This document shows positions 1 to 35,928 of a stretch of DNA of 35,928 bases, one piece after another. The DNA comes from a virus: IMG/VR virus record IMGVR_UViG_3300014539_000001, positions 1 through 35,928 of that record. One strand, 5' to 3'. Positions within the stretch are counted from its first letter, which is position 1, and every line of letters begins with the position of its first letter. Position numbers and translations under genes: made by a program. The notes under the pieces were generated by a model that saw only the letters and a list, made by a program, of their open reading frames with translations, was not told where the DNA came from and did not search any database.

Positions 1-99
1 ATCCAGAATATACAGGGAAATACATTACAAATTCCCGCTAATTGTTCCTTATTAAATGCGTATTATGGAACAACAATAGATAGAGTGGAATTTTCCCAA
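1..99. repeat. Terminal direct repeat (copy 1): identical to 35830-35928. This is the overlap of a circularly closed assembly.
   Basis: Read directly: the 99 nt ATCCAGAATATACAGGG...GTGGAATTTTCCCAA occur at both window ends. The repeat lies inside one continuous reading frame (the tail fibre). Confidence 0.95.
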
Positions 100-330
100 G
101 CTGGAACAATTACAGGAGAAGGAATTTTAATAAATGCTAGAAGTGGAAAATTGTTTTCAACAGACCCTAAAACTACAGACGGTGGAAAATACATTGACAG
201 TAAAACCGTAGGTGGATTAATAACAAAATATATCAAGGACAATTCCACCACCTTTTCAGGTTCTGTTTTAGGTGATACAAGTGGATTAACAGACAATACA
301 GATGCAATTTATAAAAAAGGATTTGATTAA
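1..330 (+). CDS. Tail fibre, C-terminal end. It continues 34360-35928 across the circular junction; the unique part is 100-330 and the stop is at 328-330.
   Basis: The frame of 34360 reaches the window end with no stop (523 codons). Position 35928 equals position 99, and position 100 is in frame with the listed ORF 85-330. Combined product is about 600 aa. Confidence 0.85.
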   Translation: MQNIQGNTLQIPANCSLLNAYYGTTIDRVEFSQAGTITGEGILINARSGKLFSTDPKTTDGGKYIDSKTVGGLITKYIKDNSTTFSGSVLGDTSGLTDNTDAIYKKGFD

Positions 331-356
331 GTTACCGCTCCCGATTGCCTTTGCTG

Positions 357-1249
357 TTAATAAGAACCAAACGATACATGAACAGAAGTGGCATAGCCAT
401 TATTGCCGTTTGCTTTTATATTGCTGTCTATCCTTGTGGCATCATATAATGCGGCGTTAATAACGCAAAATATACTACTAGGTATTATTTCCTTTGCCTC
501 ATCAATTCCATCAATTCCATTCCAATTATCAGGAAAACTAGCAGGGCGATTACAAGTTGCTAAAAAACCACTACCATAAACATTAGTAAGCTGAAGTTTA
601 TATGAACTTAAAACCGTATTATACGTATTCAATATGGAAGCACTTTTTGCTAATGTTATGTCTGCATATTGTGTGCTTATTAATGTATTACCTATTGCTA
701 TGCAATTTAAGCCTACTGCCGGATTATCAAATTTAGGTGTAGACAAATCTATTGAAACTCTTTGTAAATATAAAGAACTTGCTCCTTGTACAAGAACATT
801 ACCGTATTTATATACTAAATTCCCTTCTTCATCTCTATCTTGTAGGTTTATTTTATTGTATGGGACAGTAATTTTAGGATATTTTTTATAATTAAACCAT
901 GTTTGCCAGGAGCCGCTTATTGTTACATCTTTATTAGAAACATTTATAACTTTGGAAAGAGGGTATATATTTTTTGTATCATCATTATATATTTCCAAAG
1001 TGAATGTTATTGTCGGAACGTCTTTTTTTATTAAATCTATAGCTCTATCTAAAGTTTTAACTCTTTTTGTATAAGTAGAACCGTCATTATTATCGTCGCC
1101 GTTTTGACAATCTACGTAGATTGTTTGTTGTGGTGCTATTATTTGGTTTTGTAGTTTATCTATAGCGTCCTGTCCTAACGGTGGTGCTCCACCTATAGTT
1201 AAACTATTAGCCACTTCTATCGTATCGACAGTCAACTTCCCATTTATAT
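357..1249 (-). CDS. Silent, inverted alternative tail-fibre C-terminal cassette (receptor-binding module) with no start codon of its own.
   Basis: The minus-strand frame is open well upstream of the TTG (1235) used by the ORF track, with no ATG/GTG/TTG or SD before it. From NINGKLTVD onward it parallels residues from about 276 to the end of the expressed fibre (QIIAPQQTIYVD-x-NG-D-NNDG...). It lies tail-to-tail with the expressed C-terminus, 26 bp apart. Confidence 0.75.
1111..1147. repeat. Inverted repeat IR-B (silent-cassette copy), partner 35312-35348.
   Basis: The reverse complement of 1111-1147 matches 35312-35348 at 35 of 37 positions (ACCAAATAATAGCACCACAACAAAC.AT.TACGTAGA). Encodes QIIAPQQTIYVD in both cassettes. 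Confidence 0.9.
1223..1249. repeat. Inverted repeat IR-A (silent-cassette copy), partner 35186-35212. Candidate inversion crossover site.
   Basis: The reverse complement of 1223-1249 matches 35186-35212 at 26 of 27 positions (ATATAAATGGGAAGTTGAC[C/T]GTCGATA). Similarity between the two cassettes starts exactly here. Confidence 0.85.
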
Positions 1250-1279
1250 CATTTTCGGAACTTGAAAGGGGGTGATATA

Positions 1280-1576
1280 ATGCGAAGGATACTAGTAATT
1301 TTGGTAATAACCATAGCGTGCATGTGCTCGATATGCTCGGCGAAAAGTCTGCATAACCTGCAAGATGAGATACCGACAGACAAAGCCCTGCACTTTGCGG
1401 CAGGCTATATAATTTCCGACCAGCTTCAGCGCAATGCTCATTGCTCCGCGTTTGAAGCTTTTTTAATTACAAGTGGTATTGCATGGGCCAAAGAAAAGTG
1501 GGTAGATGACCATGTAGATAATAACGACGCATACGCTACGATGGCAGGTGGTTTGTTTTATCAAATTAAATTTTAA
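1280..1576 (+). CDS. Small exported protein or lipoprotein, YfiM/DUF2279-like.
   Basis: SD GGGGGTGA sits 7 nt before ATG 1280. Signal peptide MRRILVILVITIACMCSICSA. DKALHFAAGYIIS and GIAWAKEKW..D..ATMAGG resemble E. coli YfiM (DKAQHFLASAMLS ... GASKELW ... DVAGATTGY). The C-terminus YQIKF resembles an OMP beta-signal. Confidence 0.55.
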   Translation: MRRILVILVITIACMCSICSAKSLHNLQDEIPTDKALHFAAGYIISDQLQRNAHCSAFEAFLITSGIAWAKEKWVDDHVDNNDAYATMAGGLFYQIKF

Positions 1577-6297: not shown

Positions 6298-6573
6298 TTA
6301 TTTGGATAAGTCTTTTAATATTAATTCATTTACATAGTTATTAAAACTGCGACCTTCACTAATTGCTTTTAGTTTAGCTTGCTCATATGCAGTTGGATAA
6401 ATGGTTAGCTGTACGCGTTTAGTTAATTTTTCTTCATTTTTACTTATTACTTCACGTACATTATATTTAGCTTCAGATATTTCTTCTGTTGGAGTTGTTG
6501 TATTGTTATTTTCATTTGTATCAAAAAAGAATTCTGCAGCATTACTAAAATCTTTTTGTTCCATTAAAATCAT
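6298..6573 (-). CDS. Ribbon-helix-helix partition adaptor (ParG/omega-like), translationally coupled to parA.
   Basis: The C-terminus KRVQLTIYPTAYEQAKLKAISEGRSFNNYVNELI shows the RHH pattern. Its ATG overlaps the parA stop (ATGA). Confidence 0.65.
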   Translation of the reverse strand: MILMEQKDFSNAAEFFFDTNENNNTTTPTEEISEAKYNVREVISKNEEKLTKRVQLTIYPTAYEQAKLKAISEGRSFNNYVNELILKDLSK

Positions 6574-7334
6574 CCTTCATTTATAATTTCATTTATTAAA
6601 TTTTTATAATCTCTGCCAGCTGTAGAATAGCGAGCATAAGAAAAAATATCCATTTGTTTGGTTTGTGCTTCACGTATAGCAATACTTTCACGAATAGCTG
6701 TATTAAAAACTTTTGTTCCAATTTTTGTAGCTATATCTGTTAAACTTTTACGTAGTGATTTGCCCATCACAGTGCGGGAATTAAATCTAGTTATCAAAAT
6801 TCCCATTATTTTTAAGTTATCATTACTATTTTTTTTTACAGCATTAATAGTATCTGTGAGTAACCTAATTCCCTGGATAGCAAATATATCGGATGTAGTG
6901 GTTATTATTACATAATCGCTGGCGGTTAAAGCATTTATTGTTACTATACCCAATGCGGGTGGTGTATCAATTATTACATAATCATATATAGGTTCAAGTT
7001 TTTGCAGAATATATTTTAAGATACATTCTGCCCCTTTTTTATTTTGGAGAGTAACAAGATGTTGTGAACCAGCAATAAAATCATTGGTAATAGCTTCATT
7101 GATAGGAATTTTCCCAGTAAGTACGTCATAAATGTTGTTTTTAGACTTTGCATTTAGAGCAAATGTTAAATTACATTGTGAGTCTAAATCTAGTAATAGA
7201 ACTTTTTTAGCTTGTAAACGTAGACCACAAGCTATATTATGTGCGGTGGTTGTTTTTCCAACACCACCTTTTTGGTTTATTATGGATATTACTTGCATTA
7301 ATATCACTCCCTTGAATATATGTGGTTTATACAT
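6570..7334 (-). CDS. parA: ParA/Soj-family partition ATPase (small, type Ib-like).
   Basis: Deviant Walker A QKGGVGKTTTA, then LLLDLDSQCN and IIDTPPALG. Confidence 0.92.
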   Translation of the reverse strand: MYKPHIFKGVILMQVISIINQKGGVGKTTTAHNIACGLRLQAKKVLLLDLDSQCNLTFALNAKSKNNIYDVLTGKIPINEAITNDFIAGSQHLVTLQNKKGAECILKYILQKLEPIYDYVIIDTPPALGIVTINALTASDYVIITTTSDIFAIQGIRLLTDTINAVKKNSNDNLKIMGILITRFNSRTVMGKSLRKSLTDIATKIGTKVFNTAIRESIAIREAQTKQMDIFSYARYSTAGRDYKNLINEIINEG

Positions 7335-7344
7335 ATATTATACA

Positions 7345-7490
7345 TTATAAAAATGTAAAAATAAAGTATATTAAATGTATATATAATATTTAATAGATAT
7401 ATAATATATTATTTAAATGTATATATAACATTAAAATGATATTATTAATACATTAATTTAATATTATATAAATGTATTAAATACATTAAA
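7345..7490. promoter_or_regulatory. Iteron array upstream of parA: candidate centromere (parS-like) and par promoter region.
   Basis: AAATGTATATATAA occurs perfectly at 7373-7386 and 7415-7428 (42 bp apart). The AATGTAT core also occurs at 7448-7454 (inverted), 7470-7476 and 7480-7486 (inverted), forming the palindrome AATGTATTAAATACATT. Confidence 0.55.
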
Positions 7491-8970: not shown

Positions 8971-9032
8971 CAGCTTTTCATATATTTATAATATAATTAT
9001 AACATATAATTAATGTTATTTAAATGTAAAAT

Positions 9033-9073
9033 AGCTGTATAATAAACATTGTTTAAACATTTATTATACAGCT
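9033..9073 (-). terminator. Terminator hairpin after the 9079-9627 gene.
   Basis: AGCTGTATAATAAA pairs with TTTATTATACAGCT (14 bp). It is paralogous to the 9736-9778 hairpin (shared CTGTATAAT...ATTATACAG). Confidence 0.6.
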
Positions 9074-9078
9074 TTATT

Positions 9079-9627
9079 TTAAGGATTACATTTTTTACAA
9101 GGAACATAACCAGAATTCACAGCTTCATCACGACTGGCAAAAGTAACATAATTAGCAGATTTTATTTTATCTACATAACTGCAACTAGACTTATGAAATT
9201 TAGAAGTGCTGGCATTTCCAACATATGTTCTAGTAACTTGTGGTGCAGGTTCAACTGCTTCTTGTTGTACTGGAGGCGTAGAGGATGGAACTTGAGTTTG
9301 AGTTGTTACTTCTTCAGATGATGTGGATTGATTATTTGAAGATATTGACTCAGTGTTAGATGTTTCTTTTATATTAGAAGATATATCAGAGGAAGCAGTA
9401 TTTTCTTTCGTGGTAGTTGTTTCTATTGTTGGATTAGATGATGTAGTAGTTTTATTAGGATTATTGTTATCAGGTATATTTAGACAACTGATAAAGAAAA
9501 TAATTAATCCAATATAAAGAGTATTTTTCCATTTGCGTTTGCTTTTCTTTCTAATGAAGGAATATAACAATCCAAGTATAGCAATAATAATAGCTAAAAA
9601 TGAAAGTGAAAGAAATAAGAATACCAT
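9079..9627 (-). CDS. Membrane-anchored protein with a Ser/Thr-rich linker and a C-terminal Ada-like Cys-rich (zinc) domain.
   Basis: The N-terminus has two hydrophobic segments flanking IRKKSKRKW. The C-terminus YVGNASTSKFHKSSCSYVDKIKSANYVTFASRDEAVNSGYVPCKKCNP resembles the Ada N-terminal metal-binding fold. Confidence 0.65.
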   Translation of the reverse strand: MVFLFLSLSFLAIIIAILGLLYSFIRKKSKRKWKNTLYIGLIIFFISCLNIPDNNNPNKTTTSSNPTIETTTTKENTASSDISSNIKETSNTESISSNNQSTSSEEVTTQTQVPSSTPPVQQEAVEPAPQVTRTYVGNASTSKFHKSSCSYVDKIKSANYVTFASRDEAVNSGYVPCKKCNP

Positions 9628-9735
9628 GCTTTATTCTCCTTTTTTGATTATTTGTAATATGATTATATCATAATTATAAATATGTTTTTTTGATTGAAAT
9701 ATAAGTTGTGAAATATGTGTATTTTAGATGTAAAA

Positions 9736-9778
9736 AAACTGTATAATAAATATTTATATAACATAAATTATACAGTTT
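9736..9778 (-). terminator. Bidirectional-looking terminator after the 9800-10486 gene.
   Basis: AAACTGTATAAT pairs with ATTATACAGTTT, flanked by an A-run and a T-run. Confidence 0.7.
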
Positions 9779-9799
9779 TTTATTACAATATTAAATTTT

Positions 9800-12324: not shown

Positions 12325-13215
12325 ATGGCATTAGTACAACAAATGGTATATGGTAAAAACTTCATAGATGTGTCTAGGTATCAAAGTGGACGTATTGGTA
12401 AAAAAATATTAAATGGTCCAGCGTTAGGGAAAACACCATTAAGGCAGTTGCGTTATCAAGATAAAAAATCCGAGCGTAATTGTAGATATAAACTCAATAT
12501 GAATTTTGGTGGAGGTGATTTGTTTCTAACGCTTAGTTATCCACCATATGAGTTGATTGATTTTGCTACAGCAAGAAAGAATATAAATACCTTTTTGGAT
12601 ACTGTAAGAAAAATATATAAGCGCAATGGTAAAAAACTTAAGTATATTTTTGTGGCAGGTCTAACTAAAAGAGGTATGATACATTTCCACATTGTACTTA
12701 ATAAATTTGATACTGATGTATTAACTAAAGCATGGCAAAAAATAGTAGGTACAGAAAATTTTAAGTATCCACGTGTAACCATAAGACATTTAGATTACAG
12801 CGGAGAATATAAAAAACTTGCTAGTTATTTAATAAAAAATAGTAGGGAACAGTTTTATGGTAAGGAAAAGGTGCATAAGAAACGTTTTTGTGCATCTAAA
12901 AATCTTATTATGCCATTAGTTGTAAAAAAAATACTTAAGTATAACAGATTTTGGAGAAATATACCTAAAGCTTTAACAGGTTATACAATAGATAAAAATT
13001 CTATATATGATGGTTATGGTTGGGCAGATAATGGCGGACATTATGAGTGCTGCAGAGTGCAAAGATATACCATGTATAAAACAGATTGCACTAATTGGAA
13101 CTTGTATAAAAGTAAATACCGAAAGATATTTACAGATGATGATATACCAGAAATTATTGAAGAATGGACTGAGGAAAGCCATGTTAAGAAAAGAAGCAAA
13201 AGAGGTAGTTTGTAA
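12325..13215 (+). CDS. rep: HUH-superfamily rolling-circle replication initiator (Rep).
   Basis: The three RCR motifs occur in order: LFLTLSY (motif 1), MIHFHIVLN (HUH motif 2) and LASYLIKN (catalytic Tyr motif 3). Confidence 0.75.
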   Translation: MALVQQMVYGKNFIDVSRYQSGRIGKKILNGPALGKTPLRQLRYQDKKSERNCRYKLNMNFGGGDLFLTLSYPPYELIDFATARKNINTFLDTVRKIYKRNGKKLKYIFVAGLTKRGMIHFHIVLNKFDTDVLTKAWQKIVGTENFKYPRVTIRHLDYSGEYKKLASYLIKNSREQFYGKEKVHKKRFCASKNLIMPLVVKKILKYNRFWRNIPKALTGYTIDKNSIYDGYGWADNGGHYECCRVQRYTMYKTDCTNWNLYKSKYRKIFTDDDIPEIIEEWTEESHVKKRSKRGSL

Positions 13216-19530: not shown

Positions 19531-19737
19531 ATGCGAACAACACAAGAACAGTTGGAAGCCATAGATAAAGCAATTTATGCTTTAGAAAATACAGGAGTAA
19601 AAAGTTATAATCTTGGTACATACAGCGTAACGAGAGAGGATTTATCTACGCTATATGATGAGCGTAGGCAACTTAAAATAGAATTGGCATATGAAAATAA
19701 TAATGGAGGTGTATTTGTAGGAGTGTTTAACAAATGA
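19531..19737 (+). CDS. Head-tail joining protein, gpW-like (68 aa).
   Basis: Its size and its position between GpA-type TerL and the lambda-type portal match lambda gpW. Confidence 0.7.
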   Translation: MRTTQEQLEAIDKAIYALENTGVKSYNLGTYSVTREDLSTLYDERRQLKIELAYENNNGGVFVGVFNK

Positions 19738-21296
19738 ATATATTAGATAAGGTAATAAATTATATATCTCCAAGCTGGGCTTATAAGCGTATGCACTGGC
19801 GAATGGGAATACGACAGGCATATGATGCCGGTAAGGTTTTTAATACTTCTGCCAGTTGGGTTCCGTATAATGCCAAAGCTGAACAGTTGAACGAAGCCGA
19901 AAGAGATTTTATTCGTGCTAGGGCAAGAGATAGAGAACGTAATTCTGATTTTATGCAGTCGCTTATAAAAGCTTATGAAAGAAATGTGGTTGGTTCAGGC
20001 TTTAGGGTTCAATCACAGATAGAAGATGAAAAACTTGGAAATGAAATGGAAAAAATTTTTTCTGAATGGGCAAAACCTCGTAATTGTGAGGTAACGGGGC
20101 AGCTTAGCTTTAGAGAAATATGCAAAATGATTATCCGCCGTCGAATTATAGACGGCGGTATTTTAATTGTTAAGACATACAACGGCAATAAAAAATATCC
20201 ATTTCAGATACAGCTCCGAGAAGTAGACGATTTGGATACAGCTGTATTAACCGGAAGTAATGGCAATATGGTTATAAACGGTGTGGAGATAAATAGATAT
20301 CAAAAGCCCGTTGCTTATCATCTTAAAGTTTATTCGCCGGACGGATGGGACACAGGAAAAACAGAAAGAATACCAGCACAAAGAGTATTGTTTTTGTTCG
20401 ATAAAAAGATGCCGTCTCAAATTCGTGAAATAAGTGAAACAACATCGATGCTAACCAGAACAAATGACATCGATGATTATATTCACACGCTTTCATTAAA
20501 GGAAAAAATACAGGCGGCTTTTACTGTCTTTATTAAAAGGCAATTGCCTACTATGATTGGCGGTCTTGGAAGAAATATACCAGCACAAAAGCGGGAAAAA
20601 TATCCTATAACGGAGATTAAACCCGGCATGATATTTGAATTGCAACCAGGGGATGATGCAACTTCTATTGTACCGAATGGGCAGGCACAAAATGCTAAGG
20701 AATATATTTCTGCTATTCAGCGAATGGGTGCATCCGCGCTTGGTATTGGTTACGAAAATGCTAGTAGAGACATGAGTAATGTAAATTATTCTAGTGCTAG
20801 ACAGAACTTACTGGAGGACCAAAAGAATTTTACAGATTGGCAAATGTGGCTTATAGAACATTTCTTAATGGAAATTTATACAGAAGTTATTATTTCAGCA
20901 ATACTTGCAGGAACACTTAATGTAAAAAATTTTTGGGGAAAGAAAAAAGACTATCTTGCACATCGATGGATAGCTCCAGGTTGGAGCTGGATTGATCCGC
21001 AGAAAGAAGTTAATGCCAATAAAATAGCAATGGAAACAGGTCAAGATAGTGTTATAAATATTTGTGCCAAAGCAGGGCTTGATTATAAGGAAGTATTGGA
21101 GGACCAAGCAAAAGTTTTGGCATATAAAAAAGCACTGGAAGAAAAATATGGTATAAATTTTAGCTCCGGTAGTGCAATAAGCACCGTGCCGAAACAACAG
21201 ACAAATGAGGAGGAAGAAAATGCAGCAGAAAGTAAATCCAACAGAGCAGAAAGTACCACAAACCAGGGAAATAACACTGACGCAGGAAGCAATTAA
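19734..21296 (+). CDS. Portal protein, lambda family.
   Basis: 520 aa directly after gpW. The acidic/Asn-rich C-terminus and the order TerL-W-portal are those of lambda-like modules. Confidence 0.85.
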   Translation: MNILDKVINYISPSWAYKRMHWRMGIRQAYDAGKVFNTSASWVPYNAKAEQLNEAERDFIRARARDRERNSDFMQSLIKAYERNVVGSGFRVQSQIEDEKLGNEMEKIFSEWAKPRNCEVTGQLSFREICKMIIRRRIIDGGILIVKTYNGNKKYPFQIQLREVDDLDTAVLTGSNGNMVINGVEINRYQKPVAYHLKVYSPDGWDTGKTERIPAQRVLFLFDKKMPSQIREISETTSMLTRTNDIDDYIHTLSLKEKIQAAFTVFIKRQLPTMIGGLGRNIPAQKREKYPITEIKPGMIFELQPGDDATSIVPNGQAQNAKEYISAIQRMGASALGIGYENASRDMSNVNYSSARQNLLEDQKNFTDWQMWLIEHFLMEIYTEVIISAILAGTLNVKNFWGKKKDYLAHRWIAPGWSWIDPQKEVNANKIAMETGQDSVINICAKAGLDYKEVLEDQAKVLAYKKALEEKYGINFSSGSAISTVPKQQTNEEEENAAESKSNRAESTTNQGNNTDAGSN

Positions 21297-23100
21297 TGAG
21301 GAAAACCGAACGGCCGTATTATCTTTTGCATCGGAAACGCCGGTAAGACGTTGGTACGGTAGTGAAGTATTGCAAATTGATACGCAAAGTGTAGATATGC
21401 AGCGTATAAAAGACGGTCTTTGTTGTCTTTTATACAACCATGATACCGATGAAGTAATCGGGAAGGTAATGCGTGCATGGATAGAAGACGGAAAGGCAAA
21501 AGCTGAAGTGTACTTCGATGATGACGAGAAGTCGGAGAGGGTATGGCAGAAAGTAAGAAAAGGCATTTTAAAAGGCGTTTCTGTTGGTTATATCGTAGAC
21601 GTATGGGAAAAAGTCGAGGAGGGTGCCGTTTCTACAAATGGTCGTATAACGGGTCCAGCATATATTGCAACTCGTTGGAATGTATATGAAGTATCTATTG
21701 TATCCGTGCCGGCAGATTCAGAAGTGGGTGTCGGCAGGGCACAAAATATGCAAGAAGGAGAAACAGGAATGGGAACAAACCCGCAAGAAGGTAATAATCG
21801 TAGCCAGGCAAATAATATTTCGCCGCTTACAGATAAAAATGAAGGACAAACGGAAAATGAACGTGTAAGAGGCATTGTAAGCTTATGCAGAGAGTTCAAC
21901 ATTGAGAATGAAAGAATGGATAAATTTCTGGCCAATAGAAACATGACAATCCGTGATGTGGAACATGAAATTTTAGAAGGTCTTAAGCGTGATAATAAAC
22001 CATCTAATACAGCAAAAGCACAGGTTGGTACAGAAGAAAGAGAAAAATTCAGAGCTGCAGCAACGGATGCCATTATGATGCGTGAGGGTTTTAATATCGA
22101 AAAGCCAGCACCTGGCGCAACTGAATTGATGGGCGCTGGTATCCGTGATTATATGATTTATTGTGTAAAACGAGAGCAACCAGAATTAAGAAATCTTGAA
22201 TTTATGGATGTACAGGAACTGGCACGTGTAGCAATGACTGGCACTGGAGCTCTTCCAGGCATTTTAAGTAATGTGGCTAATAAATCTATGGCACAGGCTT
22301 ATGCTATGGCGAATACGACATATCAAACGTGGACTAGTAAAGGAAATAATAAGGATTTTAAGGAAGCAACGCGCTATCGTATTGGTGAAGCTGGAGAACT
22401 TTTAGAAATAAAAGAAAGTGGCGAATTTAAATTTGATACCTTAAAAGAAGCTTCTGCGAGAGCTAAAGTATTAACTTATGGTCGTGCATGGTCTCTTACA
22501 CGTCAAGCAATTATAAATGATGATTTGGGAGCATTAACAACAATTCCGACAAAATATGCTTATGCGGCTGTTTTGGGTATCAACAAATTGGTTTATAAAA
22601 CGCTGGCGGATACATCCACGTTGTTTACATCCACTCGTAAAAATCTCGGTACAGCAGGAAAATTAAGTGTTACAACGCTCGGAGAAGCCCGTAAGTTAAT
22701 GCGTAACTTTACTAATATTGGTAGTAAGGAAAAATTAAATATTGCCCCAAAATTCTTGATTGTACCGTCTACATTAGAAACGGAAGCACAGCAACTTTTA
22801 CAGTCAACGGCAGATCCGCAAGGTGCAAACAGTGGTGTAAATAATCCGTTCAGAAATGCGCTTACACTTGTCTGTGATAGTGAACTTGACCAGTATAGTG
22901 AAACAGCTTGGTATTTGGCAGCTGATCCGATGCTTGCTGGTGGTGGCATTGAAGTAACGTACTTGAATGGTAAGAACAGTCCGACTATAGACAGTCAAGT
23001 ATCTTTTAAAAATCTTGGTATGGATTTTCGTATCTATATTGATTATGGCGTTAATATCATTGATTGGCGTGCTTTTGTTAAAAATGCAGGTCAGGCGTAA
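21220..23100 (+). CDS. Fusion of prohead protease (HK97/S78-type), a linker/scaffold-like region and the major capsid protein.
   Basis: The N-terminal 190 aa (FASETPVRRWYG...LYNHD...VIGKV...KGVSVGY) fit the prohead protease pattern. A charged linker follows, then a roughly 330-aa capsid-like domain. SD AGGAGGAAG precedes ATG 21220. Confidence 0.75.
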   Translation: MQQKVNPTEQKVPQTREITLTQEAINEENRTAVLSFASETPVRRWYGSEVLQIDTQSVDMQRIKDGLCCLLYNHDTDEVIGKVMRAWIEDGKAKAEVYFDDDEKSERVWQKVRKGILKGVSVGYIVDVWEKVEEGAVSTNGRITGPAYIATRWNVYEVSIVSVPADSEVGVGRAQNMQEGETGMGTNPQEGNNRSQANNISPLTDKNEGQTENERVRGIVSLCREFNIENERMDKFLANRNMTIRDVEHEILEGLKRDNKPSNTAKAQVGTEEREKFRAAATDAIMMREGFNIEKPAPGATELMGAGIRDYMIYCVKREQPELRNLEFMDVQELARVAMTGTGALPGILSNVANKSMAQAYAMANTTYQTWTSKGNNKDFKEATRYRIGEAGELLEIKESGEFKFDTLKEASARAKVLTYGRAWSLTRQAIINDDLGALTTIPTKYAYAAVLGINKLVYKTLADTSTLFTSTRKNLGTAGKLSVTTLGEARKLMRNFTNIGSKEKLNIAPKFLIVPSTLETEAQQLLQSTADPQGANSGVNNPFRNALTLVCDSELDQYSETAWYLAADPMLAGGGIEVTYLNGKNSPTIDSQVSFKNLGMDFRIYIDYGVNIIDWRAFVKNAGQA

Positions 23101-33721: not shown

Positions 33722-34367
33722 AATAGACGATATCCAATTTGACAAAATCCTGCCCTACAGCATAAAAAATGATGAAACAGTTAAAAATATAGTGCAGGTT
33801 TTAGATAAAACTTTTAATAAGATAAGTGCCAATATAGATAAGGTACTGCTTTGGGACAAAATAGATGTTTTACCCGAAGAAATTTTGGACCTGCTGGCAT
33901 ATCAATTGAAAGTAGACTATTACGATATCATGATGCCGACAGTAGAGCAAAAAAGAATATTAATAAAAGACTCCATACGGCAGCACAAAATAAAAGGGAC
34001 ACCGGCAGCAGTAGAAAAGCTGGTGTCCTTTTACTTTGAGTCAGCGAAAACATTGGAAAATTGGGAATATGAAGGAGGAGAAGCGTATCATTTCAAGATA
34101 ATCGATATACTTGCGCCGATGCCGAGTATACGAATGCTAATGGACCTGATAAAAGTTATTTATACGAGTAAAAATACGCGTTCTTGGTGCGATGAAGTAC
34201 GCTTCCAACGGAACTATAGCAAGACGATTTATTACGGTGCCTATACAAATATGTATAAAAAAATAATTTTAAGACCGCATGTGTTTGATAAGGATAAACT
34301 TATAGGAATAACTTACATGACTGGATATACCAATATGTATAAGAAAGTGGGGATAAAAAATGCCTAA
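33699..34367 (+). CDS. Tail protein I (P2 gpI-like).
   Basis: ILPYSIKNDE...LLWDKIDVLPEEILDLLAYQLKVDYY...KRILIKDSIRQHKIKGTPAAV. Alternative start at ATG 33714. Confidence 0.8.
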   Translation: MAVLSMIKIDDIQFDKILPYSIKNDETVKNIVQVLDKTFNKISANIDKVLLWDKIDVLPEEILDLLAYQLKVDYYDIMMPTVEQKRILIKDSIRQHKIKGTPAAVEKLVSFYFESAKTLENWEYEGGEAYHFKIIDILAPMPSIRMLMDLIKVIYTSKNTRSWCDEVRFQRNYSKTIYYGAYTNMYKKIILRPHVFDKDKLIGITYMTGYTNMYKKVGIKNA

Positions 34368-35928
34368 TATAGAAGGATACAAACTTACCAATAAAGGTAA
34401 TGCGCTTCAGATAAAGGTTGAAGCTGGAAAATGTAAATTAGATATAACTAAATTAAAACTTGGTAGCGGTACGGCAAGCGGCGATATTGTAAATTTAACG
34501 GATTTAGTAAAAGTTGAACAAACTGTACCGATTTCCAAAATAGAGGTAATAGACGATTACACATGTCGTATAACGGGGCTTGTAACTAATCAGGGGCTTA
34601 ATAAAACGTATTATATCCGCGAAATCGGACTGTATGCACAGGACCCGGACGACGGCGAAATACTATATCTTGTGGCGGTTGATAAAAATCCCGACGTAAT
34701 GCCGGCAGACAATTACCAAATGATTATAAGCCAAGAATTTAACATAGACGTAGTAGTAAGCAATGTCGACAGCGTAAACGTAACCAGCCAGCCCGTACAT
34801 TTAATAACGGATGACGAATTAAACAAAAAAATAGAAGAACACAATACATCTGCAAATCCGCATGAAAATATATTTAAACGTGTGCTTATAACCGAAGCAA
34901 AAACCGCTGCAAATACCTCAGACTGGAACATGTTGATTGAAAGTCGCACCTATAAGATATCAGGAGCAACATTTGCCGCGGATAAACATCAGCCGGTCGG
35001 AGCAGTCGGCACCGGTGAACTAGTAGTATTGAAAAATGGAGATGATACCATAGCACAGGTGTATTATGCAAACTCTGCCGCCTACGACAAAGCAGGCGCA
35101 TACCACAGAATGTGTATTAGTGGAGCGTGGACGGATTGGGTGTATAACATAACTAATAAAGGCGGTAATGTAACTGGAGATTTTAATATAAATGGGAAGT
35201 TGACCGTCGATAGTGTACAAGTAAATGATAGACTTATGATCGGTGAAATAGACCCTGCACATCCAGATACAAGCAATTTTTTGACACCTGAAGATTTGAA
35301 AAAGATACAAGACCAAATAATAGCACCACAACAAACTATTTACGTAGACCAAAAAAATGGAAATGATAATAATGATGGAACAATTTCTAATAAAGCGTTT
35401 AGAACACTAAATAAAGCAATAGCTTCTATACGACAAGATATTCCTACATTAGCAATAAATTTAAAAACATATACAGAAGAAAAAGATAGAATGTATAATA
35501 CATTCTATCTAGATGAACCCATAAATTTTAGTAACACGTATCAATCTCCGTATAGAGCGATACGCGTTAGTAAGCAATTTAGTATATCTGCTACATGGGA
35601 AAATTATATAAGCAATAATATTGTAGCTAAGATAGTAGCACCTTATGGAAAAGTAAGTACAGGAGATAAAATAGATAATACATTATTATACGCATGGGGA
35701 AATATATTGTTTATAGCCCCCAAGTGTGATTTAAAGTTTGTTGCAGTAAATTTTGCTTTTCCAGAAGACGTGCAAAATGATAGTAAATTTACCAACACAT
35801 TATTTTATCAGCTTGTTGGTAGTTTAGAAATCCAGAATATACAGGGAAATACATTACAAATTCCCGCTAATTGTTCCTTATTAAATGCGTATTATGGAAC
35901 AACAATAGATAGAGTGGAATTTTCCCAA
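34360..35928 (+). CDS. Tail fibre. The N-terminal constant part plus the currently expressed C-terminal cassette. It runs off the window end and continues at 100-330.
   Basis: ATG 34360 overlaps the gpI stop. The N-terminus MPNIEGYKLTNKGNALQ...LGSGT resembles the P2 gpH N-terminal domain. No stop before 35928. The C-terminal IYVDQKNGNDNNDGT motif is typical of a beta-helix N-cap. Confidence 0.85.
   Translation, partial: MPNIEGYKLTNKGNALQIKVEAGKCKLDITKLKLGSGTASGDIVNLTDLVKVEQTVPISKIEVIDDYTCRITGLVTNQGLNKTYYIREIGLYAQDPDDGEILYLVAVDKNPDVMPADNYQMIISQEFNIDVVVSNVDSVNVTSQPVHLITDDELNKKIEEHNTSANPHENIFKRVLITEAKTAANTSDWNMLIESRTYKISGATFAADKHQPVGAVGTGELVVLKNGDDTIAQVYYANSAAYDKAGAYHRMCISGAWTDWVYNITNKGGNVTGDFNINGKLTVDSVQVNDRLMIGEIDPAHPDTSNFLTPEDLKKIQDQIIAPQQTIYVDQKNGNDNNDGTISNKAFRTLNKAIASIRQDIPTLAINLKTYTEEKDRMYNTFYLDEPINFSNTYQSPYRAIRVSKQFSISATWENYISNNIVAKIVAPYGKVSTGDKIDNTLLYAWGNILFIAPKCDLKFVAVNFAFPEDVQNDSKFTNTLFYQLVGSLEIQNIQGNTLQIPANCSLLNAYYGTTIDRVEFSQ
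35186..35212. repeat. Inverted repeat IR-A (expressed-gene copy), partner 1223-1249.
   Basis: 26/27 identity in inverted orientation. Marks the constant/variable boundary (NINGKLTVD). Confidence 0.85.
35312..35348. repeat. Inverted repeat IR-B (expressed-gene copy), partner 1111-1147.
   Basis: 35/37 identity in inverted orientation (QIIAPQQTIYVD). Confidence 0.9.
35830..35928. repeat. Terminal direct repeat (copy 2), identical to 1-99.
   Basis: Read directly. Confidence 0.95.

What the first reader, a model, noticed from the sequence alone, without database searches (positions are those of the whole stretch)
1..1249. Start-less inverted tail-fibre C-terminal cassette: a Mu-G/P1-C-style host-range switch that is visible only after circularising the window
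Seen:
- The fibre ORF (34360-35928) has no stop in the window and continues in frame at 100-330.
- 26 bp beyond its stop, on the opposite strand, lies a roughly 297-codon open frame (357-1249). It has no ATG/GTG/TTG or SD upstream of an internal TTG.
- Its similarity to the expressed fibre begins exactly at NINGKLTVD. The DNA there (1223-1249) is 26/27 identical, in inverted orientation, to 35186-35212.
- A second inverted repeat (1111-1147 vs 35312-35348, 35/37) encodes QIIAPQQTIYVD.
- Between and beyond these repeats the two cassettes are clearly homologous but diverged, and they differ in length.

Established: constant N-terminus plus two tail-to-tail alternative C-termini bounded by short inverted repeats is the design of the Mu G, P1 C and p15B Min segments.

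Inference: inversion of the roughly 1.84-kb segment between the IR-A copies would swap a 324-aa receptor-binding end for a 296-aa one.
Basis: partly seen in the sequence, partly recalled or inferred. Interest (0 to 1): 0.78.

Follow-up and report, generated by a model that had tools for sequence, protein, structure and literature searches.

The report
Invertible phage tail-fibre tip, no invertase
A gut phage-plasmid carries a spare, start-less copy of its tail-fibre tip in reverse orientation; in a related Lachnospiraceae prophage with the same 17-base core in its 21-base end repeat this segment flips repeatedly in nature, yet none of these phages encodes the flipping enzyme beside the segment.

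Summary
The window is a 35,829-bp circle with a 99-bp assembly overlap. The 599-aa fibre gene crosses the junction. A start-less 297-codon cassette lies tail-to-tail 26 bp after the fibre's stop. Its homology to the fibre begins exactly at INGKLTVD.

The same design occurs in every complete related locus I fetched, across two tail types and three fibre N-termini. Eight contigs of a Fusicatenibacter prophage give direct evidence of flipping. Three flank haplotypes each carry both orientations of an identical 1,947-bp segment. That segment is bounded only by a 21-bp repeat, TGATATAAATGGGAAGTTGAC, which holds the window's 17-nt IR-A core.

The 17-nt core keeps rare codons unchanged in nearly all of 25 distinct copies. 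This points to site-specific recombination rather than general homologous recombination.

The complete window genome encodes no recombinase, and no related locus has one nearby. The enzyme must therefore act in trans and is probably host-encoded. The site has a 28-bp 11-6-11 layout, and in relatives its outer arm resembles Firmicutes dif.

No flipped form of the window itself was found, and its two sites differ by one base in the putative crossover region. IR-B marks older homologous exchange and is not the switch site. This is a new variant of a known kind.

The parts
34360..35928 (+). Expressed tail-fibre gene, first part (codons 1-523). It continues at 100-330 once the circle is closed. Residues 1-275 (34360-35184) are the constant part, made of a P2-type tail-collar fibre N-terminal domain plus the family's invariant central domain.
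   Evidence: There is a weak PF12571 hit. The central domain is invariant in 11 fibres. The gene follows Tail_P2_I, Baseplate_J and gp25, as annotated in the syntenic relative L001.
100..330 (+). Expressed tail-fibre gene, last 76 codons plus the stop (GFD-type body end). Bases 1-99 duplicate 35830-35928.
1..99 (.). Assembly overlap, identical to 35830-35928. It marks a circular contig.
   Evidence: Direct repeat D2, 99/99 identical.
35173..35200 (+). Putative 28-bp recombination site at the expressed end: outer arm ACTGGAGATTT, overlap TAATAT, inner arm AAATGGGAAGT. The invariant 17-mer core lies at 35188-35204.
   Evidence: In L048/L052 the inversion breakpoint lies within TGAT plus the 17-mer.
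1235..1262 (-). Putative 28-bp recombination site at the silent end: outer arm AGTTCCGAAAA, overlap TGATAT, inner arm AAATGGGAAGT. The 17-mer core lies at 1231-1247.
   Evidence: The outer arm is non-coding, yet TTCC and AAA are invariant in all silent flanks listed. It sits at a fixed distance from the core, while its distance to the neighbouring SD varies.
357..1250 (-). Silent, start-less alternative C-terminal cassette (297 codons; linker type 1 plus FGSY-type beta-helix body; stop at 357-359).
   Evidence: The AF2 model has pLDDT 86.9 and is a beta-helix. No promoter-like signal above the shuffle background was found.
331..356 (.). 26-bp spacer between the two converging stop codons. It lies inside the invertible segment.
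35306..35348 (+). IR-B, expressed copy (QIIAPQQTIYVD). It is a junction of homologous exchange, not the switch boundary.
   Evidence: 40/43 identical to the copy at 1111-1153. The 99%-identical stretch shared with the silent cassette of L004 starts at 35306. This stretch is not conserved at DNA level across the family.
1111..1153 (-). IR-B, silent copy.
1280..1576 (+). Gene for a 98-aa protein with a hydrophobic N-terminus, just outside the silent end. Its SD lies about 10 nt from the site. It travels with the fibre module in both phage backbones and precedes the holin/endolysin genes.
   Evidence: It has no Pfam or PHROG hit.

Best explanation
Window 34360..(junction)..1262 is a two-cassette, invertible receptor-binding switch.

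The fibre gene encodes a constant N-terminal and central part. It reads through a recombination site into a linker and a beta-helix body (GFD type). A second linker and body (FGSY type) lies tail-to-tail behind it. That cassette has no start codon and begins at the same site in inverted orientation.

Inversion of the roughly 1.84-1.89-kb segment between the two sites would place the FGSY body behind the constant part and silence the GFD body.

I propose that the reaction is conservative site-specific recombination. It would occur at a roughly 28-bp site made of an outer arm, a 6-bp overlap T-NNN-AT, and the inner arm AAATGGGAAGT.

The recombinase would be supplied in trans, most likely a host tyrosine recombinase and possibly Xer-like. 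The phage encodes none.

What is shown:
- the architecture;
- the homology between fibre and cassette;
- the absence of any recombinase gene in the window;
- recurrent clean inversion of the orthologous segment in a related prophage.

What is inferred:
- that the window's own segment flips;
- the identity and class of the enzyme;
- that the two bodies bind different receptors.
For: 1. Anatomy is confirmed.

2. The design is conserved. The window and loci L001, L004, L005, L007, L011, L012/13, L015, L016, L020 and L048-56 all have an expressed fibre followed by a silent cassette. The silent cassette always starts at N-x-INGKLTVD, and a stop codon usually lies 2 codons upstream.

3. The same body types are expressed in some genomes and silent in others. 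P0036 (silent, 19 contigs) matches by eye the C-terminal 299 aa of P0033 (expressed, 6 contigs).

4. L048 and L052 differ only by an inversion. The left flank is 3000/3000 identical and the right flank 2999/3000. The inner segment is 1947/1947 identical after reverse-complementing. The repeat at its ends is 21 bp, and the first polymorphic base after it moves with the body.

5. Both orientations occur on each of three flank haplotypes. That requires at least three independent events.

6. The core codons ATA AAT GGG AAG are invariant in 25/25 distinct copies, and TTG in 22/25. In this genome GGG, AAG and TTG make up only 9%, 18% and 16% of their codon families. The next invariant residues T, V and D vary freely at synonymous sites.

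7. The three bases at the centre of the dyad (AAT, GAT or ACA) match between the two sites of the same genome in 11 of 13 genomes.

8. No recombinase was found. Pfam scans. PHROGs. TBLASTN with Hin gave a best E of 1.7, and the gene gaps hold no open frame longer than 95 aa. No recombinase gene lies near any related locus.

9. Both bodies model as right-handed beta-helices, with tailspike and glycosidase structures as the best matches.
Against: - No flipped form of the window's own cassette pair was found. The protein database, IMG/VR and JGI metagenomes were searched. All five contigs that carry the FGSY cassette have it silent.
- The window's two sites differ at one base of the putative overlap (TAATAT against TGATAT). 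In tyrosine-recombinase systems such a difference usually lowers recombination. The close relative L001 has matching overlaps.
- dN/dS between silent FGSY copies is 0.71, based on only 22 differences. Purifying selection on the silent copy is therefore not demonstrated.
- Linker and body reassort at IR-B, so homologous recombination also acts on these cassettes.
- The recombinase is unidentified.
- The dif resemblance is strong for one arm only. In the relative L048 the outer arm matches 10/11 and the inner arm 6/11. The window's site matches 15/28 overall.
- The window's host is unknown.
Confidence: 0.6

Rival explanations
1. The segment inverts, but through general (RecA-type) homologous recombination between the short repeats and conserved linkers. 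No dedicated recombinase or specific site is involved. The 17-mer is conserved only because it ends a recently spread, highly conserved central domain and serves as a homology anchor.
For: - No recombinase gene lies in cis in any locus, and the window has none at all.
- Repeat length varies from 24 to 176 bp between genomes, with 100% identity over 114 bp in L005. That pattern is typical of gene conversion.
- Chimeras have junctions at IR-B as well as IR-A.
- The phage encodes RecU, a Holliday-junction resolvase.
Against: - In the prophage where flipping is documented, the repeat is only 21 bp perfect. Even so, at least three independent clean inversions occurred on backgrounds with 0-1 substitutions in 6 kb. 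That rate is far too high for RecA acting on 21 bp.
- Synonymous sites of the core are frozen across 25 copies, while the adjacent codons drift.
- The non-coding outer arm of the silent site is conserved at a fixed distance from the core.
- The homology boundary falls at the same base in all genomes.
Confidence: 0.17
2. In this particular genome the cassette is a frozen relic or reservoir. The family switches, but the window's copy no longer does, because of overlap heterology and diverged linkers. Its silent cassette matters only as donor material for recombination with other phages.
For: - All five contigs with the FGSY cassette show it silent, and no expressed FGSY fibre exists in a 5.8-billion-cluster protein database.
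- The two sites differ by one base in the putative overlap.
- dN/dS between silent copies is 0.71.
- Cassettes clearly move between phages: the silent slot of L004 and the expressed fibre P0046 both carry the window's GFD body.
Against: - The 297-codon frame is intact in an AT-rich genome.
- The core is perfect at both ends.
- L001, a close relative with the same cassettes, has matching overlaps.
- The silent slot of L004 is exactly the reciprocal product expected from a flip in a window-type genome.
- Five contigs, several of them near-identical, are too small a sample to exclude a minority orientation.
Confidence: 0.18
3. The 357-1249 frame is an independent gene with its own start, for example a second fibre or tailspike protein translated from the TTG at 1235.
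For: Gene callers annotate it from the internal TTG as a 292-aa protein (P0001). The frame is open for 369 codons.
Against: - No ATG/GTG/TTG lies upstream of the TTG at 1235, and there is no SD at a usable distance.
- In most relatives a stop codon lies 2 codons before INGKLTVD.
- Promoter-like sites do not exceed the shuffle expectation.
- The start of homology coincides with the middle of a fibre, so the cassette lacks any baseplate-attachment domain.
- The identical cassette is found fused to the constant part in other contigs.
Confidence: 0.03
4. The arrangement is an assembly artefact of circularisation or of a misjoin at a repeat.
For: The feature spans the contig ends. Several related contigs break at or near the repeat.
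Against: - The 99-bp overlap is exact and keeps the reading frame.
- L001 is an independent NCBI contig in which the locus is internal, and it has the same arrangement at 99.6% identity.
- More than ten independent assemblies made with different assemblers show the same design.
Confidence: 0.02

Closest known systems
Mu G segment/Gin, P1 C segment/Cin, p15B Min, e14 P/Pin (serine-invertase tail-fibre switches of enterobacterial phages)
   Same: A constant fibre N-terminus reads across an inverted repeat into one of two or more oppositely oriented, start-less C-terminal cassettes. Inversion exchanges the receptor-binding end. The window element is carried by a plasmid-like prophage, as P1 and p15B are.
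   Different: - There is no Gin/Cin/Min/Pin-type gene next to the segment or anywhere in the genome.
- There is no tail-fibre assembly gene (U/U') inside the segment.
- The cassettes are beta-helix, tailspike-like bodies.
- The relative whose host was identified is a Lachnospiraceae prophage. The window's own host is unknown.
- The site is an invariant 17-mer within a 28-bp dyad layout, with no evident gix/cix resemblance. That last comparison rests on memory only.
Rin shufflon of Bifidobacterium prophages (Mavrich et al. 2018, PMC6109161)
   Same: A gut Gram-positive phage RBP C-terminus is exchanged by inversion at short sites. A tyrosine-type mechanism is proposed.
   Different: Rin has its own XerD-like tyrosine invertase gene flanking the cassettes, several cassettes, and 11-bp rix sites (TTCCCTAACCC). 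Here there is no cis recombinase, there are two cassettes, and the site is different. The rix motif is absent from the locus.
[quoted passage not shown]
   Same: An inverted 3' gene end plus a small gene, with no flanking recombinase. The authors proposed an invertase supplied in trans and stated that this had not been reported before in phages.
   Different: That case rests on one pair of genomes, an 8-bp repeat, and genes of unknown function. Here the gene is a tail fibre, the site is defined, the design spans several phage backbones, and recurrent flipping is documented on three haplotypes.
BV01-like Phocaeicola phage tail-fibre shufflon (PMC13596623)
   Same: A gut temperate phage diversifies the distal tail fibre by inversion.
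   Different: That element is a multi-cassette shufflon flanked by a recombinase, with 10-bp motifs, in Bacteroidota hosts.
Xer/dif-exploiting elements (IMEXs such as CTXphi; plasmid cer/psi sites)
   Same: A mobile element carries a roughly 28-bp 11-6-11 site and relies on a host tyrosine recombinase. The outer arm of the silent site in the relative L048 matches 10 of 11 positions of the B. subtilis dif XerC-side arm.
   Different: - Known Xer-exploiting elements use the enzyme for integration or dimer resolution, not for switching a structural gene.
- The inner arm is not XerD-like (6/11).
- No experiment links Xer to this site.

Membership tests
Gin/Cin/Min/Pin-type invertible tail-fibre segments | Constant fibre 5' part followed by oppositely oriented, start-less alternative 3' cassettes | tested here: met
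Gin/Cin/Min/Pin-type invertible tail-fibre segments | Serine invertase gene (Resolvase plus HTH) adjacent to the segment | tested here: not met
   Pfam was run on every ORF of 150 aa or more and on many smaller ones. PHROGs was also run. TBLASTN with Hin gave a best E of 1.7, and the gene gaps have no frame longer than 95 aa. Neighbouring genes in relatives carry no recombinase domain.
Gin/Cin/Min/Pin-type invertible tail-fibre segments | 26-bp gix/cix/hix-type crossover sites and a Fis-dependent enhancer | not tested
   No curated gix/cix model was available. By eye, and from memory only, the 17-mer does not resemble them.
Gin/Cin/Min/Pin-type invertible tail-fibre segments | Tail-fibre assembly (chaperone) gene paired with each cassette inside the segment | tested here: not met
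   The segment holds only the two converging C-terminal coding parts and a 26-bp spacer.
Gin/Cin/Min/Pin-type invertible tail-fibre segments | Both orientations observed | tested here: inconclusive
   Both orientations are seen for the orthologous segment in a related prophage. They are not seen for the window's own cassettes. Reads were not available.
Rin shufflon | Cis-encoded XerD-like tyrosine invertase and rix sites TTCCCTAACCC | tested here: not met
   There is no Phage_integrase-type hit. The only near-match to rix lies at 12421-12431 and is at chance level.
INGKLTVD fibre-cassette family (defined here) | Invariant 17-mer ATAAATGGGAAGTTGAC at both ends in inverted orientation, with homology of the silent copy starting at that point | tested here: met
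   There are two exact copies, at 35188-35204 (+) and 1231-1247 (-). The boundary is the same as in all relatives.
INGKLTVD fibre-cassette family (defined here) | Matching central bases (T-NNN-AT) in the two sites of one genome | tested here: not met
   The window has TAATAT against TGATAT. Eleven of 13 genomes match, including the close relative L001.
INGKLTVD fibre-cassette family (defined here) | Beta-helix receptor-binding bodies in both slots | tested here: met
   The AF2 models have pLDDT 86.9 and 83.0. The best PDB fold matches are GH136 enzymes, the CBA120 TSP1 tailspike and pectin-lyase-fold enzymes. The expressed type was modelled from P0006, which is 88% identical.
Xer/dif-type core site | 28 bp made of two 11-bp arms around a 6-bp central region, resembling the host dif | tested here: inconclusive
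   The layout fits, and identity between partner sites starts at the first overlap base. Against B. subtilis dif, the outer arm of the relative L048 matches 10/11, its inner arm only 6/11, and its whole site 17/28. The window's site matches 15/28. The host's own dif could not be retrieved.

The most novel reading that the evidence does not exclude
Phages of at least two tail backbones, plus a phage-plasmid with no recombinase of its own, share one 'public' recombination site. Under this reading they hand control of their host-range switch to a chromosomally encoded tyrosine recombinase of their Lachnospiraceae host. That enzyme could be Xer-like, acting at 28-bp dif-like sites. The bacterium's own housekeeping or master recombinase would then set the rate at which its prophages diversify their receptor-binding tips.
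Probability: 0.3. Interest if true: 0.85.

Novelty: new variant of a known kind. Interest (0 to 1): 0.66.

Why it matters
Tail-fibre inversion switches are a textbook mechanism, but they are known almost only from enterobacterial phages, where the phage's own invertase sits next to the segment.

Here the same logic appears in gut Firmicutes phages with no cis recombinase. It has a sharply defined 21-28-bp site. Metagenomes show that the switch fires repeatedly in human guts.

- It gives a concrete, testable case of a phage structural switch run by a trans-acting enzyme that is probably host-encoded.
- It supplies a simple sequence signature, the 17-mer at both ends of a roughly 1.9-kb segment. 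That signature can be used to find such switches and to count orientations in existing metagenomes.
- It identifies a set of interchangeable beta-helix receptor-binding modules for Lachnospiraceae, a group for which cultured phages and known receptors are scarce.
- It warns that gene callers annotate the silent cassettes as independent 280-310-aa proteins.

Tried and rejected
- **Recombinase in the window.** I looked with Pfam, PHROGs, TBLASTN using Hin recalled from memory, and a check of the gene gaps. Nothing was found.
- **Flipped form of the window's own cassette.** I searched with junction patterns. IMG/VR had zero hits even for the unflipped pattern, and JGI metagenomes had zero. These collections simply lack this phage. 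The pattern was validated on the window itself.
- **Species-representative genomes.** The scan for the fibre family found nothing.
- **GenBank phages.** There was no match to the terminase-to-capsid region.
- **17-mer alone in IMG/VR.** It gave 26 hits. By my rough estimate about half are expected by chance, so this was of little use.
- **First reading of the L048/L052 repeat.** I initially read it as about 168 bp from overlapping BLAST segments. That was wrong. The collinear alignment had run on into the diverged linkers, and the true perfect repeat is 21 bp.
- **dN/dS on the silent cassette.** Too few differences were available to be informative.
- **Search with the constant N-terminus.** It gave no flipped partner for window-type phages. 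It did not even return the window's own fibre, which shows the limits of the word index.
- **Lachnospiraceae dif.** I looked in the Kono et al. supplement. No such genomes are listed.
- **Independent-gene and assembly-artefact readings.** Both were considered and rejected (see rivals).
Full report
**1. What is in the window**

Bases 1-99 repeat 35830-35928 exactly. The window is therefore a circular assembly of 35,829 bp.

It is a complete myovirus-like genome. It encodes:
- a gpA-type terminase, a lambda-type portal, a protease-capsid fusion and a tail tube;
- P2-type baseplate genes, by synteny with L001;
- a fibre gene, followed by holin-like genes, a GH25 endolysin and an N6/N4 methylase;
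- a ParA ATPase, an HUH-type Rep, RecU and an HTH repressor.

It has no integrase, so it looks like a phage-plasmid.

The fibre gene runs 34360-35928 and continues at 100-330, giving 599 aa. Its stop is followed by a 26-bp spacer and then by the stop of a minus-strand frame at 357-359. That frame is open for 369 codons, but its first possible start codon is the TTG at 1235.

The cassette's similarity to the fibre is 36% over 196 aa with E=1e-32. It begins exactly at INGKLTVD.

IR-A is 26/27 identical and IR-B is 35/37, extending to 40/43.

**2. The design is a family trait**

A search with the silent cassette found two kinds of relatives:
- proteins of 280-330 aa that start at an internal TTG or GTG of LTVD, which are silent cassettes mis-called as genes;
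- full fibres of 480-530 aa.

Fetching their contigs showed the same layout every time: a fibre gene, a converging start-less cassette, a 98-aa gene, and then lysis genes.

This layout occurs in P2-like phages related to the window (L001, L004, L011). It also occurs in prophages with an unrelated E217-like tail module (L005-7, L012-17, L020, L048-56).

Fibres have three different N-termini, an invariant central domain of about 110 aa, and then INGKLTVD.

In every silent copy the homology starts at N-x-INGKLTVD. In most, a stop codon lies two codons upstream.

Body types, named by their last residues, occur expressed in some genomes and silent in others. Examples are GFD, SNIGS, SNIVN, KNWS and YSNL.

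The window's GFD body also occurs in two other settings:
- about 99% identical in DNA in the silent slot of L004, a phage otherwise only 74% identical to the window;
- near-identical by eye on a fibre with a different N-terminus, P0046.

**3. Direct evidence that the segment flips**

P0036 is a silent form found on 19 contigs. By eye it matches the C-terminal 299 aa of P0033, an expressed form found on 6 contigs.

Their contigs carry the same prophage at the same chromosomal place. PtsI beside the cassette on one of these contigs (L049) is 99% identical to that of Fusicatenibacter saccharivorans.

L048 and L052 compare as follows:
- the left flank is 3000/3000 identical;
- the right flank is 2999/3000 identical;
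- the 1,947-bp segment between the cores is 1947/1947 identical only after reverse-complementing.

The inverted repeat there is just TGATATAAATGGGAAGTTGAC, 21 bp. The two cassettes have different linkers. The first polymorphic base after the 17-mer travels with its body, so the crossover lies inside the 21-mer.

My first estimate of a 168-bp repeat was an alignment artefact.

Eight contigs fall into three flank haplotypes. One of them differs from the others by 114 substitutions in 4.9 kb. Each haplotype includes both orientations, and the inner segment is identical in all eight. At least three independent, clean inversions therefore occurred with essentially no other change. That is the behaviour of a programmed switch.

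These assemblies come from different assemblers (k-mer sizes 119-141 are stated in several contig names). A 21-bp repeat cannot confuse them.

Several other contigs stop within 0-71 nt of the core, or exactly at its outer edge. Mixed orientations within a sample would produce such breaks.

**4. Site-specific or homologous?**

Four things point to a specific site.

(a) Repeated flipping occurs at 21 bp of identity.

(b) The core is conserved at DNA level. ATA AAT GGG AAG is invariant in 25 of 25 distinct copies, and TTG in 22 of 25. GGG, AAG and TTG are rare codons here (9%, 18% and 16% of their families). The next invariant residues T, V and D use 3, 4 and 2 codons.

(c) The non-coding flank of the silent site is conserved as A-N-TTCC-N-N-AAA at a fixed distance from the core, while its distance to the neighbouring SD varies.

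(d) The site has a dyad. ACTTCC and GGAAGT lie 16 nt apart, which gives an 11-6-11 layout:
- most silent sites read ACTTCCTAAAA | T-NNN-AT | AAATGGGAAGT;
- identity between partner sites starts at the first base of the 6-bp centre;
- the three central bases (AAT, GAT or ACA) differ between genomes but match between the two sites of one genome in 11 of 13 cases.

That is the pattern expected for the overlap region of a conservative recombinase.

The outer arm matches 10 of 11 positions of the XerC-side arm of B. subtilis dif (ACTTCCTAGAATATATATTATGTAAACT). The dif sequence was confirmed in Kono et al. 2011, Table S1. The inner arm matches only 6 of 11. The Xer idea is therefore a lead, not a result.

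Homologous recombination also acts on these cassettes. Linkers and bodies reassort at the QIIAPxQ stretch, which is IR-B. The silent slot of L004 consists of the window's silent-slot linker (96-98% identical) joined at IR-B to the window's expressed body (96-100% identical). Some genomes have homogenised repeats of 114-176 bp.

IR-B is not conserved at DNA level across the family. I read it as a scar of exchange and not as the switch boundary.

**5. No recombinase**

- Every ORF of 150 aa or more, and many smaller ones, was scanned against Pfam.
- Ten unknown ORFs were scanned against PHROGs.
- The two gene-poor gaps hold no frame longer than 95 aa, and TBLASTN with Hin gives nothing.
- No related locus has a recombinase within the 6-10 kb fetched on each side.

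The enzyme must therefore act in trans. For a plasmid-like prophage without any recombinase, a host enzyme is the simplest source. A co-resident prophage is the alternative.

**6. What the cassettes are**

AlphaFold models were built for the silent FGSY cassette (pLDDT 86.9) and for a GFD-type cassette (P0006, 88% identical to the window's expressed end; pLDDT 83.0). Both are right-handed beta-helices.

They have the same best structural neighbours:
- GH136 lacto-N-biosidases of Lachnospiraceae and bifidobacteria;
- the phage CBA120 tailspike TSP1;
- pectin-lyase-fold enzymes.

The scores are modest, with E about 5e-4 and TM about 0.35. Only the fold class is supported, not an activity. The bodies are probably glycan-binding or glycan-cleaving receptor-binding domains.

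**7. The window itself**

Its sites are:
- expressed end, 35173-35200: ACTGGAGATTT|TAATAT|AAATGGGAAGT;
- silent end, reverse complement of 1235-1262: AGTTCCGAAAA|TGATAT|AAATGGGAAGT.

The core is perfect at both ends. One base of the putative overlap differs. The close relative L001 has identical overlaps.

All five contigs that carry the FGSY cassette hold it in the silent slot (window, L001, L002, L003, L008). No expressed FGSY fibre exists in the protein database.

The window is therefore a member of a switching family. Whether its own copy is active is open.

**8. Comparison with known systems**

It works like Mu G, P1 C, p15B Min and e14 P. It fails two defining features of that family: the adjacent serine invertase and the internal chaperone genes.

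It also differs from the Rin shufflon of bifidophages, which has a cis tyrosine invertase and rix sites (rix is absent here). It differs too from the BV01-like shufflon, which is flanked by a recombinase.

The nearest precedent is the recombinase-less inverted locus that Mavrich et al. noted in two bifidophages. [quoted passage not shown]

Systematic surveys list tail fibres among the gene families with programmed inversions.

I found no description of this family, its site, or its recurrent flipping in the papers searched. That library is incomplete.

**9. Verdict**

- The mechanism is most likely site-specific inversion by a trans-acting recombinase.
- Novelty: a new variant of a known kind.

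Noticed in passing
window 6570-7334 (-), 12325-13215 (+), 7357-7488, 8982-9081, 9718-9785: The genome looks like a phage-plasmid. It has ParA, an HUH-type Rep (PF23343) and AT-rich repeat clusters (families D1, D5 and I3) that could be partition or origin sites. There is no integrase. A plasmid prophage with no recombinase also has no evident dimer-resolution function, which would be another reason to use a host Xer-type enzyme.
   Followed up: partly
P0046 (Logan contig, 15.5 kb); L004 1133-1755: The window's expressed GFD body is near-identical on a fibre with a different N-terminus (MAEKPDF type) and in the silent slot of a phage only 74% identical elsewhere. The same receptor-binding module therefore circulates among at least three phage backbones.
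   Followed up: partly
L019/L038, L022, L021/L040, L018/L035, L057: Independent metagenome contigs end 1 nt after the 17-mer, inside it, 49 or 71 nt after it, or exactly at the outer TGAT. A 21-bp repeat should not break an assembly. This suggests that both orientations, or several cassettes, coexist in those samples.
   Followed up: partly
P0050 (348 aa, ENA contig 14.8 kb): This is an L004-type fibre in which INGKLTV is joined directly to the middle of an SNIVN-type body. It looks like an aberrant deletion or recombination product at the core site.
   Followed up: no
L048 about 12998 / L052 (host RsgA-like gene): A third copy of ATAAATGGGAAG lies in the host flank, about 4.5 kb beyond the silent site. 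It lacks the rest of the core and is probably chance.
   Followed up: no
window 1225-1252 (+): A promoter-like TCGACA-16-TATCAT (10/12) overlaps the silent site and points into the 98-aa gene and the lysis genes. The count of such sites in the region does not exceed the shuffles, so it may mean nothing.
   Followed up: no
window 1280-1576 (+) and its homologues in L005, L007, L009, L048: A 98-aa protein with a hydrophobic N-terminus always sits immediately outside the silent end, in both phage backbones (about 76% DNA identity). It has no Pfam or PHROG hit and its role is unknown.
   Followed up: partly
L049 8570-12367; L055 1477-7377: In two contigs the silent cassette is followed directly by host-like genes (PTS/HPr/PtsI; GH43 and beta-helix proteins) instead of the lysis genes. 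These may be prophage remnants or chimeric contigs.
   Followed up: no
window 19734-21296 and 21205-23100: The portal ORF overlaps by 92 nt an ORF that fuses a prohead protease (S78) to the major capsid protein.
   Followed up: no
L002 against L003 (same NCBI metagenome assembly): Two contigs from one assembly carry the same silent cassette. L002 has a 141-bp duplication of window 1231-1371 next to the site. This is probably an assembly artefact at the repeat.
   Followed up: no
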